A stretch of 64,000 bases of DNA, from assembly GCA_031520405.1 (NCBI GenBank), contig GCA_031520405.1_4842.1. One strand, given 5' to 3'. The position numbers and the translations under genes are program-made. Positions within the stretch are counted from its first letter, which is position 1; each line of letters starts with the position of its first letter. The notes beneath the pieces were generated by a model. That model was not told where the DNA came from. It saw only the letters and a program-made list of their open reading frames with translations, and ran no database searches. This stretch comes from a phage. Below are positions 8,211 to 10,411 of the stretch, in pieces.

Positions 8211-8336
8211 TGGAGCCGTTTTAGGGAGTCGAACCCAAATGCTTGGCCAGCGCTGACCTTACATCCCATCTGACTTAGGCAACCCACCTCTGCTTACTCA
8301 GGAGCTTATCCCCTTTGGACAGTCAGATATAACGGC
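8211..8336 (-). ncRNA. tRNA-like stable-RNA candidate (about 122 nt) with encoded CCA, acceptor-like stem and T-arm, internal 8-bp hairpin, no anticodon arm found
   Basis: plus strand reads TGG-A-GCCGTTT-TAGGG-AGTCGAA-CCCAA; partner TAACGGC at 8330-8336 gives 6 of 7 acceptor pairs; internal IR 8268-8275 with 8321-8328. Confidence 0.3.
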
Positions 8337-8942
8337 TTTGGGATTGGAGGAAGGACTCGAACCTTCTCATGTACGCTCCTGATTTCTCAGAAGTAGTCTG
8401 CTCCCATCGACCTATTAAGTACACGCTCCGCTCATTGTCGGCGGGAGATTATTAATCACACCCTCCCGCCTATTTTAGTGCGCCGAATTTTGTTATGAGG
8501 AATCGGAAGACCTCACTGGTGTATGGCTATTAAGCTACTGCCAGGAACGTGTTATCATTAGCGATTATTTTTGTGGTCAGTTTCTAAAAACCCGCAAAGT
8601 CACGCACAACGAAAACGAAAACCTGTTTGAGTCCTAAACCTACCTGTCTTGGTCTCACATCGCTATGAGTGGCCAGGACTCAAACAGCTTGCCGTTCAGT
8701 GAGTTAACTATACTTTGTAACCCGTTATTGATAAAACCTTTTATTTTGTTGGCGAGGGTGCGGAATCGAACCACACTTCTGAGCGCTACCCCGTGTCACC
8801 AATGCACCACCTCACCATCGATTTGCCGGAACTTACGCATCCGGCCTCGTCCTGTCGGTGTTCTTCTGAATCCGGGAAGATCAGCAGGAACTATGAATCA
8901 AGTTAATTCAACCAACAGGAATCCTCTTGTTGCCCTTTGACG

Positions 8943-8979
8943 CAACATTATGAACCCTCTATGAAGACTCATAATGTTG
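8943..8979. repeat. 11-bp inverted repeat with 15-nt spacer
   Basis: CAACATTATGA at 8943-8953 pairs with TCATAATGTTG at 8969-8979. Confidence 0.85.
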
Positions 8980-9274
8980 TCGGCGTGATGGAGATTAGCG
9001 CCCCCGACCTCCCCTTATATGTTGGTGTCGACTTGCCAACAGGGTGCTCTCTGATTCTGAGCTAATCACGCTACAACAGGGAGTTTCGTTCTCCGACGGT
9101 CAAGTGCGTCCACTGACACCAGCGAGGTGGCTATTACGCCTCTATTCACACAAGCCCCTGAGACTAGGGGTTAACTGGTTTTGGGCTGCAAACCCGACTC
9201 CCACTGTGTTATTTCCCTCATGTTTAATACTTTACCGCAGCCCAGCTAATTTGAAAAGTCCTCTCCCCTTTGAG

Positions 9275-9421
9275 CTACACTGCCCACAGCAGTGCGGACG
9301 AACCTTCACTCAAAACCGGATGCGCCGAAGTGGGCAACTGTTTACCGGACTGATCGGGTAGACCCAGGAGAGAGCAGGTAATCCCGATCAGGAGGATGAG
9401 GAGTAACATCATGTAAAACAT
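9275..9421 (-). CDS. small hydrophobic protein, 48 aa (predicted N-terminal membrane helix); below the ORF-track size cutoff
   Basis: minus-strand ORF MFYMMLLLILLIGITCSLLGLPDQSGKQLPTSAHPVLSEGSSALLWAV; GAAGGGAGGG RBS 5-8 nt upstream of ATG. Confidence 0.55.
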   Translation of the reverse strand: MFYMMLLLILLIGITCSLLGLPDQSGKQLPTSAHPVLSEGSSALLWAV

Positions 9422-9478
9422 AGTGTTCCCTCCCTTCCATGCAACTAACTTTACTACAATTATTTATTGAATAAAGCG

Positions 9479-10048
9479 TTATTTTAACACTTCTAACTTC
9501 ACAACACGACGCAGAAGGTAAACATATTCGCCAGCAGCTTCATGCGTCATATAATGGGTAGAAGGTGTGGAATGATTGTTCTGGGTTTCTTTTAATCCAA
9601 CACGTTCTGCCCAACCATTAATAGAGTTCCCATAGAAACCGATAATCGCGCCAAAATAAATGCGCTGGCTTTCTGGCTCTAAAACATAGTTGACAGTGAA
9701 GCAAATATCAGAACGAATAGACTCCAGTTTCATACCAACACGACCTTCGGAGAATTCGTTACGAACATATAAATGACGGAAACGATCGCGCCGCGCTTGT
9801 GATGATTCTTCCAATTCTTGTCGGAGTGAAGAAGTTACGTCAATATTAAATGAAAATGTTGGATTCTGTAAATCGGAACGGGCCAACTCTAACGCAGATT
9901 CAACAACGCGACGGAAATTGATACTTTTACCTGTCAGGCGTTTCACTTCATCTGTGATTGTTCCAAAAGGGATTTTCGTGGCGCGTTCCCCTTCGTATTT
10001 TGCCAATAAAGGAATAATGTGTTTCATGATTGCTGTGTTAATGTGCAT
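9479..10048 (-). CDS. hypothetical protein, first gene of the minus-strand unit that runs into the RNA array
   Basis: 189-aa ORF; divergent from the plus-strand structural genes. Confidence 0.6.
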   Translation of the reverse strand: MHINTAIMKHIIPLLAKYEGERATKIPFGTITDEVKRLTGKSINFRRVVESALELARSDLQNPTFSFNIDVTSSLRQELEESSQARRDRFRHLYVRNEFSEGRVGMKLESIRSDICFTVNYVLEPESQRIYFGAIIGFYGNSINGWAERVGLKETQNNHSTPSTHYMTHEAAGEYVYLLRRVVKLEVLK

Positions 10049-10364
10049 TCCGGAGCCTCACCGAATTGATTAAATGTCTCCATTATTATATTGGAGATAC
10101 GTTTATTGAATATAAACACAGGAATGGCCAATAAAATAATGACAGTGATTATTAATAGGTAAAAACTACTTTTCTACAACATCAAGAAACTGTATCTTAA
10201 CGCGGTGCCCTTCGAGTTGTGAGTGTTAACGAACAACGAGAAGCAGCCACCATGGCTGCGGAATGGGACTGCCTGTCAAGGCGGTGTTACGAGCGAGGGC
10301 GTCAGCCCCCTCGCGAGTATATTCGAATAAATTAAACGCGCGCGAGCGTTTTGATTCCCGTTGG

Positions 10365-10372
10365 CTAAATAT
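10365..10372 (+). promoter_or_regulatory. T4-late-promoter-like box CTAAATAT upstream of the baseplate wedge gene
   Basis: matches the recurring CTAAATA(C/T) motif found upstream of many structural genes here; resembles T4 late consensus TATAAATA. Confidence 0.35.
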
Positions 10373-10411
10373 CTTCAACACCATATTCAAACTCAGGTGA
10401 TGGAGATTATC

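What the first reader, a model, noticed from the sequence alone, without database searches (positions are those of the whole stretch)
9275..10048. Two-gene minus-strand unit with an unannotated 48-aa membrane protein that reads into the RNA array
A 189-aa protein gene (9479-10048) and a strongly RBS-supported 48-aa hydrophobic ORF (9275-9421, missed by the ORF track) are co-oriented with and directly upstream of the RNA array. No terminator is seen before 5362, so the proteins and RNAs may be one transcription unit.
Basis: partly seen in the sequence, partly recalled or inferred. Interest (0 to 1): 0.5.

Follow-up and report, generated by a model that had tools for sequence, protein, structure and literature searches.

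The report
Small membrane-peptide gene inside structured phage RNA
In this Vi1-like (Kuttervirus) phage, the 48-codon reading frame is real and conserved, but it lies inside a folded RNA that is the first unit of a long uncharacterised RNA array, and the 189-aa gene upstream is a separate, swappable gene of unknown function.

Summary
The window is a Kuttervirus (Ackermannviridae) phage, about 99% identical to Salmonella phage pSK20. Both ORFs exist as described.

- **ORF189 (9479-10048, minus strand):** a family-restricted protein. Its predicted fold is confident (pLDDT 92) but matches no solved structure. It has its own promoter-like box. It exists as about 65%-identical alleles swapped between otherwise 98-100% identical phages, and the swap ends exactly between ORF189 and ORF48.
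- **ORF48 (9275-9421, minus strand):** kept as an SD + ATG + hydrophobic N-terminus ORF of 47-65 codons in eight lineages. Only the first ~22 codons evolve like coding sequence. The tail changes frame between genera.
- **RNA structure over ORF48:** the same 198 nt (9442-9245) fold into a conserved RNA. It has a hairpin burying the SD and AUG, a pseudoknot-like domain and two hairpins. 16 pairs show compensatory change against 7.3 in shuffles. SCI is 0.92, like the downstream RNA modules and unlike ORF189 (0.03-0.19).
- **Transcription signals:** a conserved promoter-like box sits directly after the ORF189 stop. The only strong terminator is at 5384-5362.

ORF48 is best read as a probably translated small membrane peptide carried by the structured leader module of the array. 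The functions of both proteins are unknown.

The parts
10085..10112 (-). Promoter-like site for ORF189: TATTCAATAAA box, then TATAAT at 10090-10085
   Evidence: The composite of box plus a -10-like hexamer occurs 5 times in the window against 0.155 expected. TTCAATAAA occurs 10 times against 1.26 expected, mostly intergenic and upstream of genes.
9479..10048 (-). ORF189: conserved protein of unknown function, restricted to Ackermannviridae (phrog_3788)
   Evidence: - ORF listed; phrog_3788 E 6.9e-102.
- 31 homologue clusters, all phage or unnamed; 14 representatives at 50% identity.
- AlphaFold2 pLDDT 91.9.
- No hit in Pfam, NCBIfam or PADLOC.
9448..9478 (-). Conserved promoter-like box directly after the ORF189 stop: GCTTTATTCAATAAA-9 nt-TAAAGT
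   Evidence: Nearly invariant across Kuttervirus, Agtrevirus, Taipeivirus, Miltonvirus, Limestonevirus and metagenomic relatives, including L037, whose ORF189 homologue is only 34% identical. It coincides with the right-hand boundary of the ORF189 allele cassette.
9245..9442 (-). Structured RNA module M0 (198 nt) that contains ORF48
   Evidence: - Covariance model R1 matches at 229.5 bits.
- 94.2% of cells are paired against 85.9% in shuffles (0/500).
- 16 pairs change on both sides against 7.3 in shuffles and at most 6 in slid controls.
- SCI 0.92 and column-shuffle z -8.3, against 0.03-0.19 and -0.2 to -1.0 for ORF189 coding controls.
- No Rfam family matches.
9394..9438 (-). P1 hairpin enclosing the Shine-Dalgarno (GGAGG, 9433-9429) and the AUG (9421-9419)
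   Evidence: RNAalifold consensus. The hairpin forms in all 7 lineages folded, with dG -16 to -20 kcal/mol and different sequences: GGGAGG/CUCC, GCGAGGAG/CUUCUCGC, GCGAGG/CCUCGU, GUGAGG/CCUUAUCAC.
9275..9421 (-). ORF48: 48-aa ORF (phrog_8415) with an N-terminal transmembrane-type helix and an unconstrained tail
   Evidence: The SD, ATG and hydrophobic N-terminus are kept in 8 lineages at 47-65 codons. Variable sites by codon position are [5,2,7] for codons 1-22 but [6,9,4] for codons 23-40.
9352..9389 (-). Stem A (GAUCGGG 9389-9383 / CCCGAUC 9358-9352); its loop carries the 5' strand (9372-9366) of the long-range helix
   Evidence: Compensatory variants of stem A:
- CAUCGGG/CCCGAUG (Taipeivirus)
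- GAUAGGG/CCCUAUC (L010)
- GGUYGG/CCGACY (Miltonvirus)
- CUUGUUGG/CCAACAAG (L037)
- AACUGGCU/AGCCAGUU (phiEa2809)
9261..9267 (-). 3' strand (GGGAGAG) of the long-range, pseudoknot-type helix. It pairs with CUCUCCU at 9372-9366 and lies just past the ORF48 stop.
   Evidence: Helix 3: 100% of cells paired and 3 of 7 pairs changed on both sides (CUCUCC/GGAGAG versus CCCUGG/CCAGGG in Miltonvirus). ACCCUG/CAGGGU in phiEa2809 was read from the sequence.
9277..9348 (-). Hairpin B (9348-9316) and hairpin C (9295-9277, ending in the stop codon)
   Evidence: Hairpin C has 5 of 7 pairs changed on both sides. It exists as two alternative alleles, CACUGC..GCAGUG and GCAGGA..UCCUGU, which produce the two alternative protein tails.
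8983..9244 (-). Linker module M1 (9244-9094) and the first tRNA-shaped RNA, T1 (9093-8983), into which the ORF48 transcript runs with no terminator between
   Evidence: - The T1 acceptor stem covaries: GCGUGAU/AUCACGC, GUGUGAU/AUCACAC, UCGCGAU/AUCGCGA, CAUGGUUG/CAACCAUG.
- It carries a conserved 10-nt loop, CAAGUCGACA.
- SCI is 0.56 (M1) and 0.80 (T1).
- ARAGORN and Rfam do not call it a tRNA.
5385..8982 (-). Rest of the RNA array: conserved structured modules, tRNA-Met, tRNA-Asn and tRNA-Ser, a tRNA with a 22-nt insert, and two small ORFs
   Evidence: Modules have SCI 0.69-0.97 and z -2.1 to -10.5. Several blocks are more conserved across genera (90-97%) than the ORF189 gene (70%). tRNAs are. 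No other Rfam families match.
5362..5384 (-). The only strong intrinsic terminator of the co-oriented region
   Evidence: 9-bp GC-rich stem followed by UCUUUUU. dG is about -17 kcal/mol, and it is the only convincing hit in a custom scan of 10150-5300.

Best explanation
The locus holds two independent things, not one two-gene unit.

1. **ORF189** is an early-type, non-structural Ackermannviridae protein with its own sigma-70-like promoter box. Its function is unknown. My weak guess is a nucleic-acid-binding or host-interaction factor. It behaves as an exchangeable allele cassette.
2. **ORF48** lies in a 198-nt structured RNA (9442-9245) that starts at a second conserved promoter box placed right after the ORF189 stop.

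This RNA is bifunctional in layout:
- A 5' hairpin buries the Shine-Dalgarno and the AUG.
- A stem plus a long-range helix form a pseudoknot-like domain across the ORF.
- Two further hairpins fill the 3' half.
- The same RNA carries a 47-65-codon ORF.

Only the first ~20 residues of the ORF, a transmembrane-type helix, are constrained as protein. The tail is whatever the RNA hairpins happen to encode. I infer that the peptide is made at a low, structure-gated level and inserts into the inner membrane. This could happen co-transcriptionally before P1 closes, or when the long-range helix competes for the pyrimidine tract.

Transcription then continues without a terminator into tRNA-like T1 and the roughly 3.9-kb array of conserved structured RNAs and tRNAs, ending at 5384-5362. 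The pieces are presumably released by RNase P, Z or E at the tRNA-shaped elements.

**Shown:** the ORFs, the conservation, the covarying helices, the promoter-like boxes, the lack of terminators, and the cassette boundary.
**Inferred:** translation, membrane insertion, transcription start sites, processing, and any biological role.
For: **Identity.** The window is 99% identical to Kuttervirus phages.

**ORF189.**
- Full-length phrog_3788 match.
- The family is restricted to Ackermannviridae-like phages, including Vibrio, Erwinia and Serratia relatives.
- The AlphaFold2 model is confident but has no PDB fold match.
- In LIMEstone1 the homologue lacks the 'confirmed structural protein' note that its neighbours carry.
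- The allele cassette 10159-9463 is 61-78% identical to S118, with 97-100% (mostly 98-100%) identical flanks.

**ORF48 as coding sequence.**
- SD, ATG and a hydrophobic ORF are kept in 8 lineages.
- The frame is open only in frame 0, with P 0.10-0.16 per lineage.
- T is periodic at codon position 2, and variation by codon position is [5,2,7] for codons 1-22.
- Frame-0 BLOSUM62 is +77 against -340 and -190.
- AlphaFold2 gives a helix over residues 2-20.

**ORF48 as RNA structure.**
- Covariation statistics, RNAalifold consensus, SCI 0.92 and z -8.3.
- The SD hairpin forms in 7 lineages.
- The covariance model finds the module in phiEa2809.

**Tail not constrained as protein.** 1-nt indels, two alternative tails, and variation of [6,9,4] by codon position.

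**Promoter boxes:**. **Terminators:**
Against: - There are no expression data of any kind. I found no transcriptome or ribosome-profiling study of an Ackermannviridae phage.
- The 'SD' is also one strand of a conserved helix, so its conservation does not by itself prove ribosome binding.
- Overall synonymous versus non-synonymous counts in frame 0 (53/121) are hardly better than in frame 2 (46/115).
- In L037 the hydrophobic stretch is only about 13 residues (KD 0.75).
- Limestonevirus lacks the module entirely, so it is dispensable.
- The covariation test rests on 13 sequences, about 5-6 effective lineages. The structure was partly derived from the same sequences.
- Single-sequence folding of the module is unremarkable (z -0.83).
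- The promoter boxes are consensus-level predictions.
- ORF189's function is a guess.
Confidence: 0.55

Rival explanations
1. The 9442-9245 region is purely a non-coding structured RNA, the first module of the array. The 'RBS + ATG + ORF' is then a by-product: a purine-rich helix strand that looks like an SD, and pyrimidine-rich partner strands that translate to Leu/Ile/Phe.
For: - Strong structure conservation equal to the other array modules.
- The SD is base-paired in every lineage.
- The C-terminal half shows 1-nt indels, frame changes and variation peaking at codon position 2.
- A compensatory pair links a synonymous change to a non-synonymous one, Asp to Tyr (L010).
- Overall dN/dS-like counts are near neutral.
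- The module is absent in Limestonevirus.
Against: - Frame 0 alone stays open for at least 47 codons in all 8 lineages.
- T is periodic at codon position 2 over 20 codons, far beyond the helix strands, in lineages with only 27-41% nucleotide identity.
- Frame-0 amino-acid similarity is positive while the other frames are strongly negative.
- The ATG keeps a 5-8 nt spacing from the SD in every lineage.
- Alignment gaps between the first ~40 codons of different lineages are multiples of 3.
Confidence: 0.25
2. One reading: ORF189 and ORF48 form one functional two-gene protein operon, transcribed from a single promoter together with the RNAs, and the proteins act on or with the RNA array.
For: - The two ORFs are co-oriented, only 57 nt apart, with no terminator before 5362.
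- The order ORF189-homologue, then gene-poor or tRNA region, is kept across the whole family, including Vibrio, Erwinia and a relative at 34% identity.
- ORF189 has a conserved basic motif, SSQARRDRFRH.
Against: - A conserved promoter-like box lies between the two ORFs.
- The recombination boundary falls exactly between them.
- ORF48 is absent from Limestonevirus and the Vibrio phage, although ORF189 homologues are present.
- In phiEa2809 two other ORFs and about 1 kb separate them, and the module lies upstream of the promoter box.
- Conserved gene order is the norm in this family, so it is weak evidence for a functional link.
- No RNA-binding or nuclease family was detected for ORF189.
Confidence: 0.12
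3. ORF48 is a hok-like type I toxin or lysis-type membrane peptide. It would be a small pore-forming or depolarising peptide whose mRNA is kept translationally silent by fold-back structure until it is processed.
For: - A peptide of about 50 aa with one N-terminal transmembrane helix and a polar tail.
- The SD and AUG are sequestered in a stable hairpin.
- A long-range helix joins the ORF interior to the sequence just 3' of the stop. This layout recalls the structured hok mRNA (my own knowledge).
- Kutter et al. 2011 found no holin in CBA120 (PMC3184105).
Against: - No antisense promoter or antitoxin candidate on the opposite strand.
- No match to any type I toxin RNA or protein family.
- Not found in E. 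coli genomes.
- Dispensable in Limestonevirus, so it is not the essential holin.
- No endolysin lies adjacent.
- The tail is unconstrained.
Confidence: 0.08

Closest known systems
Dual-function (coding plus structured) bacterial RNAs, e.g. S. aureus RNAIII/hld (delta-haemolysin) and SgrS/SgrT
   Same: A conserved, multi-hairpin RNA that also carries a short ORF for a small, membrane-active or hydrophobic peptide. RNA-level and protein-level constraints overlap on the same nucleotides. (The comparison rests on my own knowledge of these systems. The overlap of constraints here is shown.)
   Different: There is no sequence or covariance-model similarity. No base-pairing target is known. The element sits in a lytic phage as the head of a tRNA/ncRNA array. 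Translation is not demonstrated.
Type I toxin mRNAs (hok/sok and relatives)
   Same: A single-transmembrane peptide of about 50 aa. The SD and start codon are occluded by structure. A long-range helix joins the coding region to the 3' flank.
   Different: No antisense RNA gene was found. No family membership was found. The peptide tail is not conserved. Toxicity is untested.
Phage T4 tRNA region (tRNA cluster with co-transcribed small stable RNAs and small ORFs)
   Same: A T4-related phage carries co-oriented tRNA genes, extra stable-RNA-like elements and tiny ORFs between promoters and a downstream terminator, presumably processed by host RNases. (T4 facts are my own knowledge. The local layout is.)
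   Different: Here the non-tRNA part is far larger, about 3 kb in about 20 conserved modules. Many modules are tRNA-shaped but not tRNAs. The first module carries the ORF. Kutter et al. [quoted passage not shown]
GOLLD and ROOL large ornate phage RNAs
   Same: These are large structured RNAs of unknown function encoded in phages and prophages 'often near tRNA islands'. GOLLD env-38 lies downstream of a Met-tRNA (PMC12286853). The array here lies next to tRNA-Met in a phage.
   Different: No Rfam GOLLD, ROOL, OLE or HEARO match even in permissive mode. The region looks modular, with many short units gained and lost between genera, rather than one large RNA. This comparison concerns the array, not the two ORFs themselves.
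PHROG families phrog_3788 and phrog_8415
   Same: ORF189 and ORF48 are full-length members (E 6.9e-102 and 2.5e-33).
   Different: Both families are annotated 'unknown function', so membership explains nothing about mechanism.

Membership tests
phrog_3788 (ORF189) | Full-length profile-HMM match | tested here: met
   E 6.9e-102, residues 1-189 on profile positions 1-190 of 190
phrog_8415 (ORF48) | Full-length profile-HMM match | tested here: met
   E 2.5e-33, residues 1-48 on profile positions 1-48 of 48
Type I toxin-antitoxin (hok-like) | Small (<60 aa) hydrophobic peptide with one transmembrane helix | tested here: met
   KD(19) is 2.1-2.85 in 7 of 8 lineages. AlphaFold2 gives a helix over residues 2-20 at pLDDT about 90.
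Type I toxin-antitoxin (hok-like) | Structured mRNA occluding the SD and start codon | tested here: met
   P1 hairpin with dG -16 to -20 kcal/mol in 7 lineages; consensus fold; pair counts
Type I toxin-antitoxin (hok-like) | Antisense or adjacent antitoxin sRNA gene | tested here: inconclusive
   No promoter-like site on the plus strand between 9240 and 9450. The nearest are at 9528 and 9618 and point away. The scan is a simple consensus search.
Type I toxin-antitoxin (hok-like) | Match to a described toxin protein or RNA family | tested here: not met
   No hit in Pfam, NCBIfam, PADLOC or Rfam
Type I toxin-antitoxin (hok-like) | Toxicity or membrane damage on expression | not testable with these tools
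   Needs an induction experiment
Dual-function RNA (coding plus structured) | Conserved secondary structure supported by covariation | tested here: met
   16 pairs changed on both sides against 7.3+/-1.8 in shuffles (0/500), and at most 6 in slid controls. SCI 0.92, z -8.3.
Dual-function RNA (coding plus structured) | Conserved small ORF with a coding-type substitution pattern | tested here: met
   Met for codons 1-22 only: [5,2,7] variable sites by codon position, T periodicity at position 2, frame-0 BLOSUM +77 against -340/-190, and the frame kept open in 8 lineages. Not met for codons 23-48.
Dual-function RNA (coding plus structured) | Demonstrated translation and a separate RNA-level activity | not testable with these tools
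   No expression data were found
PD-(D/E)XK nuclease (considered for ORF189) | Significant fold match and the catalytic D...(D/E)xK motif | tested here: not met
Holin (considered for ORF48) | Essential lysis-cassette membership next to an endolysin or spanin | tested here: not met
   The neighbours are the baseplate gp6 gene, ORF189 and RNAs. The module is missing from Limestonevirus and the Vibrio relative.
GOLLD / ROOL / other Rfam RNA families (considered for the module and array) | Covariance-model match | tested here: not met
   Only tRNAs reach the threshold. Nothing else scores E<0.01 except chance hairpin matches to miRNA models.

The most novel reading that the evidence does not exclude
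The ORF48 module would be a bifunctional RNA: the mRNA of a structure-gated small membrane peptide and, at the same time, the leader unit of a previously undescribed structured-RNA operon conserved across Ackermannviridae. That operon spans about 3.9 kb and about 20 modules, many of them tRNA-shaped but not tRNAs, and more conserved than the neighbouring protein genes. This would be a new class of phage RNA locus, comparable in mystery to GOLLD and ROOL. On this reading ORF189 would be its dedicated, rapidly diversifying protein partner.
Probability: 0.3. Interest if true: 0.75.

Novelty: new variant of a known kind. Interest (0 to 1): 0.5.

Why it matters
Vi1-like phages are widely used against Salmonella, E. 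coli O157, Klebsiella and Dickeya. Even so, a stretch of several kilobases in them has been written off since 2011 as gene-free or filled with spurious small ORFs.

This work shows three things:
- The stretch is a set of conserved, covarying RNAs.
- Its first unit doubles as a small membrane-peptide gene.
- The 189-aa gene in front is an independently exchanged cassette.

Together these give concrete, testable targets: transcription start sites, a start-codon mutant, and RNA probing. They also correct how these genomes should be annotated. If the peptide and RNA functions are both real, this adds a phage example to the short list of dual-function RNAs. It also opens a route into what phage RNAs linked to tRNA islands do.

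Tried and rejected
1. **Family searches for both proteins.** Pfam, NCBIfam, PADLOC and PDB sequence and profile searches found nothing.
3. **Motif ideas for ORF189.** I checked 2H-phosphoesterase (HxT/S) and Tpt1-like motifs by eye against the invariant columns. Neither is conserved.
4. **Rfam.** Gathering and permissive modes on the whole region and on sub-windows found no family. The weak tmRNA and miRNA hits are chance or simple hairpins.
5. **Metagenome scan.** A scan with the promoter-box pattern returned 120 loci, none carrying the module (model R1). The pattern was too generic.
6. **IMG/VR searches.** These returned only known isolates.
7. **E. coli genomes.** No copy of the module.
8. 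**Terminator after the long-range helix (…GAGAGGACUUUUCAAAUU).** Rejected: the U-tract is not conserved in the Miltonvirus-type L032, L037 or phiEa2809 (3M keeps a partial one).
9. **Lipoprotein signal in ORF48.** Rejected: no lipobox, and Cys16 is not conserved.
10. **Late (TAAATA) promoter inside the box.** It is present in this phage but not conserved across genera.
11. **Single-sequence folding of the module.** Uninformative (z -0.83).
12. **Literature.** No transcriptome or ncRNA study of Ackermannviridae was found.
Full report
**What the window is.** The region 5300-10400 is 99% identical to Salmonella phage vB_SenAc-pSK20 and Escherichia phage KEP4. It matches more than 100 Kuttervirus genomes over its full length. 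In these Ackermannviridae (Vi1-like) phages the locus lies next to the divergently transcribed baseplate-wedge gp6 gene. Kutter et al. 2011 described the homologous part of phage CBA120 as a small tRNA cluster. [quoted passage not shown] They could not identify early promoters (PMC3184105).

**The observation.**
- GGAGG lies 7 nt upstream of the ORF48 ATG.
- Downstream on the same strand lie tRNA-Met, tRNA-Asn and tRNA-Ser. A tRNA with a 22-nt insert in the anticodon loop follows.
- One strong intrinsic terminator sits at 5384-5362.
- My own scan of the minus strand from 10150 to 5300 looked for hairpin plus U-tract. It found only that terminator as convincing, plus weak candidates at 7516 and 6414.
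- ORF48 is not really unannotated. It is phrog_8415, and about half of the related records annotate it as a hypothetical protein.

**ORF189.**
- *Family.* It is a full-length member of phrog_3788, function unknown. Pfam, NCBIfam, PADLOC and PDB sequence or profile searches find nothing. Homologues form 31 clusters at 90% identity and 14 at 50%. All are phage or unnamed. tblastn bridged through a distant member reaches Klebsiella, Dickeya, Serratia, Erwinia and 61 Vibrio phage records.
- *Motifs.* The alignment shows invariant motifs: FSFNI, SSQARRDRFRH, and GFYG.SINGW...PSTHY.
- *Not a virion protein.* In LIMEstone1 the homologue lacks the 'confirmed structural protein' note that its neighbours carry. 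This fits an early, non-virion protein.
- *Allele cassette.* Against Salmonella phage S118, another Kuttervirus, the flanks are 97-100% (mostly 98-100%) identical, but 10159-9463 is only 61-78% identical. That segment is exactly the ORF189 promoter region plus the gene. The same phages carry a 100% identical ORF48. ORF189 is therefore an exchangeable allele cassette. Its right-hand boundary lies between the two ORFs.

**ORF48 as a coding sequence.**
- *Conservation of the ORF.* An SD, an ATG and an ORF with a hydrophobic N-terminus follow the ORF189 homologue in many lineages:

| Lineage | ORF length (aa) |
|---|---|
| Kuttervirus, Agtrevirus | 48 |
| Taipeivirus | 57-62 |
| Miltonvirus | 58-65 |
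| Metagenomic relatives L010, L011, L013 | 48, 63, 47 |
| L037 (ORF189 homologue only 34% identical) | 50 |

  In Erwinia phage phiEa2809 the ORF is 49 aa and lies about 1 kb downstream of the ORF189 homologue.
- *Open frame.* In all eight lineages frame 0 is open for at least 47 codons and the other frames are closed. The shuffle probability is 0.10-0.16 per lineage.
- *Periodicity.* T occupies codon position 2 in 14-15 of the first 22 codons in four lineages, against 2-5 at positions 1 and 3. Variable sites in codons 1-22 fall [5,2,7] by codon position.
- *Protein-level similarity.* Between lineages with only 27-41% nucleotide identity, frame-0 BLOSUM62 similarity over codons 2-22 sums to +77. 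The other frames give -340 and -190.
- *Transmembrane helix.* The hydrophobic segment passes the usual threshold in 7 of 8 lineages. AlphaFold2 makes residues 2-20 a confident helix.
- *The tail is different.* Codons 23-40 vary most at position 2, [6,9,4]. Single-nucleotide indels shift the frame between genera. Two unrelated tails...SSALLWAV and ...AQDFRSC..., occur behind near-identical N-termini.

**ORF48 as RNA.** The same 198 nt (9442-9245) form a conserved structure.
- *Consensus helices.* RNAalifold and my own inspection give five elements:
  - P1, which pairs the SD region with codons 7-10 and encloses the AUG.
  - Stem A (GAUCGGG/CCCGAUC).
  - A long-range helix from the stem-A loop (CUCUCCU) to GGGAGAG just after the stop. 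Together with stem A it is pseudoknot-like.
  - Hairpin B.
  - Hairpin C, which ends in the stop codon.
- *Pair counts.* On 13 sequences, 94.2% of cells pair, against 85.9% in shuffles (0/500). 16 pairs change on both sides, against 7.3±1.8 (0/500). Slid controls give 41-55% paired and at most 6 such pairs.
- *Stem A variants.* It appears as CAUCGGG/CCCGAUG, GAUAGGG/CCCUAUC, GGUYGG/CCGACY, CUUGUUGG/CCAACAAG and AACUGGCU/AGCCAGUU in other lineages. In L010 a synonymous Ile change is compensated by an Asp-to-Tyr change. This points to selection at the RNA level.
- *Comparison with neighbours.* In a module-by-module comparison, M0 has SCI 0.92 and column-shuffle z -8.3. The downstream RNA modules have SCI 0.56-0.97 and z -2.1 to -10.5. 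Two ORF189 coding controls have SCI 0.03 and 0.19, and z -0.2 and -1.0.
- *Further points.* The SD/AUG hairpin forms in all seven lineages folded, with dG -16 to -20 kcal/mol. A covariance model of the module finds one copy per genome and nothing in Rfam corresponds. Single-sequence folding alone is unremarkable (z -0.83).

**Transcription signals.**
- Directly after the ORF189 stop lies GCTTTATTCAATAAA-9 nt-TAAAGT (9478-9448). It is nearly invariant in all genera, including Limestonevirus and L037.
- TTCAATAAA occurs 10 times in the window against 1.26 expected, mostly upstream of genes.
- The box followed by a -10-like hexamer occurs 5 times against 0.155 expected. Three of these lie in this locus, heading ORF189 (10109), the ORF48 module (9470) and ORF74 (6925). 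A variant, ATCAATAAC-14-TATAGT, lies at about 8742.
- I read these as the family's sigma-70-type early promoters: a -35-like T(A/T)TTCA followed by an A-rich spacer. This is inference.
- The annotated late-promoter core in LIMEstone1 is TAAATA. One such site precedes the late gene at 5314, downstream of the terminator.
- The locus is therefore a co-oriented, multi-promoter region with a single terminator. Read-through from ORF189 into ORF48 is likely, but it is not the only source of transcription.

**Modularity.**
- Limestonevirus keeps the box but lacks the ORF48 module. A deletion of about 290 nt joins the box to the ..CCUAGUCUC.. hairpin. A different 52-aa CxxC ORF is present there.
- The Vibrio relative has a basic 64-aa ORF in that position.
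- In phiEa2809 the module lies upstream of the box.
- ORF48 is thus a dispensable, movable cassette and not an obligate partner of ORF189.

**What it runs into.** After the stop come linker M1 and T1 (9093-8983).
- T1 is tRNA-shaped. Its acceptor stem covaries through four sequence variants, and its elongated anticodon arm ends in a conserved loop, CAAGUCGACA. tRNA finders do not call it.
- Further modules are 90-97% identical between genera whose ORF189 genes are about 70% identical. They are gained, lost and reordered between genera.
- None matches Rfam.
- The array as a whole is a conserved structured-RNA locus. [quoted passage not shown]

**Conclusion.**
- Best reading (confidence 0.55): ORF189 is an independent early gene of unknown function. 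ORF48 is a probably translated, structure-gated small membrane peptide, encoded in the structured leader module of the RNA array.
- Main rival (0.25): the module is purely non-coding.
- Neither protein's biological role can be assigned from sequence. The decisive tests are transcript-end mapping, translation-initiation profiling or tagging, and mutants that separate coding from structure.

Noticed in passing
window 5385-9244 (minus strand): The 'gene-free' stretch is a chain of about 20 conserved RNA modules. SCI is 0.56-0.97 and column-shuffle z is -2.1 to -10.5, with up to 14 compensatory pairs per module. Several blocks are 90-97% identical between genera whose proteins are about 70% identical. 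Modules are gained, lost and reordered between genera. No Rfam family matches.
   Followed up: partly
window 8983-9093 (minus strand): T1 is a tRNA-shaped RNA with a covarying acceptor stem (four sequence variants), a D-loop that tolerates large insertions, an elongated anticodon arm ending in a conserved 10-nt loop CAAGUCGACA (containing the palindrome GUCGAC), and a non-canonical T-loop. ARAGORN and Rfam do not call it a tRNA.
   Followed up: partly
window 7022-7127 (minus strand): An element of about 100 nt lies directly upstream of tRNA-Met. It begins GGGGCGAUAGUUUAAGGGAUUCGA, which resembles a tmRNA 5' end, and ends in a T-arm-like hairpin followed by ACCCCGCCA. It is conserved (SCI 0.87, z -4.7) but is not called as a tRNA or tmRNA.
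   Followed up: partly
window 5609-5694 (minus strand): A tRNA-like gene with a 22-nt insertion in the anticodon loop (Rfam tRNA model 48.7 bits in E-value mode only). Relatives annotate it 'tRNA-OTHER'. ECML-4 has a normal tRNA-Ile at the equivalent place.
   Followed up: no
window 7335-7426, 7798-7933, 8080-8212, 8614-8696: Four long inverted repeats (22-25 nt arms, 83-95% complementary) each enclose 39-92 nt. Each has a different sequence, and they form the closing stems of separate array modules.
   Followed up: partly
window 9463-10159: The ORF189 gene plus its promoter region is a recombination cassette. It is 61-78% identical to Kuttervirus S118, while both flanks are 97-100% (mostly 98-100%) identical. 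At least two alleles of about 65% aa identity circulate among Kutterviruses. The pattern resembles that of host-interaction or counter-defence genes.
   Followed up: partly
window-wide; 6918-6926, 9463-9471, 10102-10110, 44184, 45740, 45762, 57816: TTCAATAAA is enriched: 10 copies against 1.26 expected. It is mostly intergenic and usually followed 9-11 nt later by a -10-like hexamer. It is a candidate for the early-promoter motif that Kutter et al. 2011 could not find in CBA120.
   Followed up: partly
window about 8700-8745; L038:6360-6400; L003:6997-7050: The sequence GUAUAGUUAACUCACUGAACGGCAAGC, at the start of the module with the 8614-8696 hairpin, recurs in LIMEstone1. It also recurs in a Vibrio Ackermannviridae phage directly after that phage's ORF189 homologue. 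It is the most deeply conserved piece of the array seen here.
   Followed up: no
L002 (SeKF_64) 2591-3004; relatives SS3, SS9, CBA120 orf221: Some Kutterviruses carry an HNH homing endonuclease inserted next to, and overlapping, tRNA-Met. This window lacks it.
   Followed up: no
window 6705-6929 and 6557-6691 (minus strand): Two small ORFs lie inside the array: 74 aa (phrog_3684, weak DUF2188-like) and 44 aa (phrog_6110). The first has its own TTCAATAAA box. They sit between tRNA-Met and tRNA-Asn.
   Followed up: no
L003 (LIMEstone1) 6573-6850: Limestonevirus lacks the ORF48 module. The promoter box is joined directly to the CCUAGUCUC hairpin. A different 52-aa ORF with CxxC...C motifs and its own SD follows.
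   Followed up: partly
window 5314-5345 (minus strand): Immediately after the array terminator lies UAUAAUAAAUAG, a T4-type late-promoter-like TAAATA. It precedes a 77-aa ORF and a tail-needle-knob gene (Phage_tail_NK, E 5.8e-29). This marks the switch from the RNA region to late structural genes.
   Followed up: no
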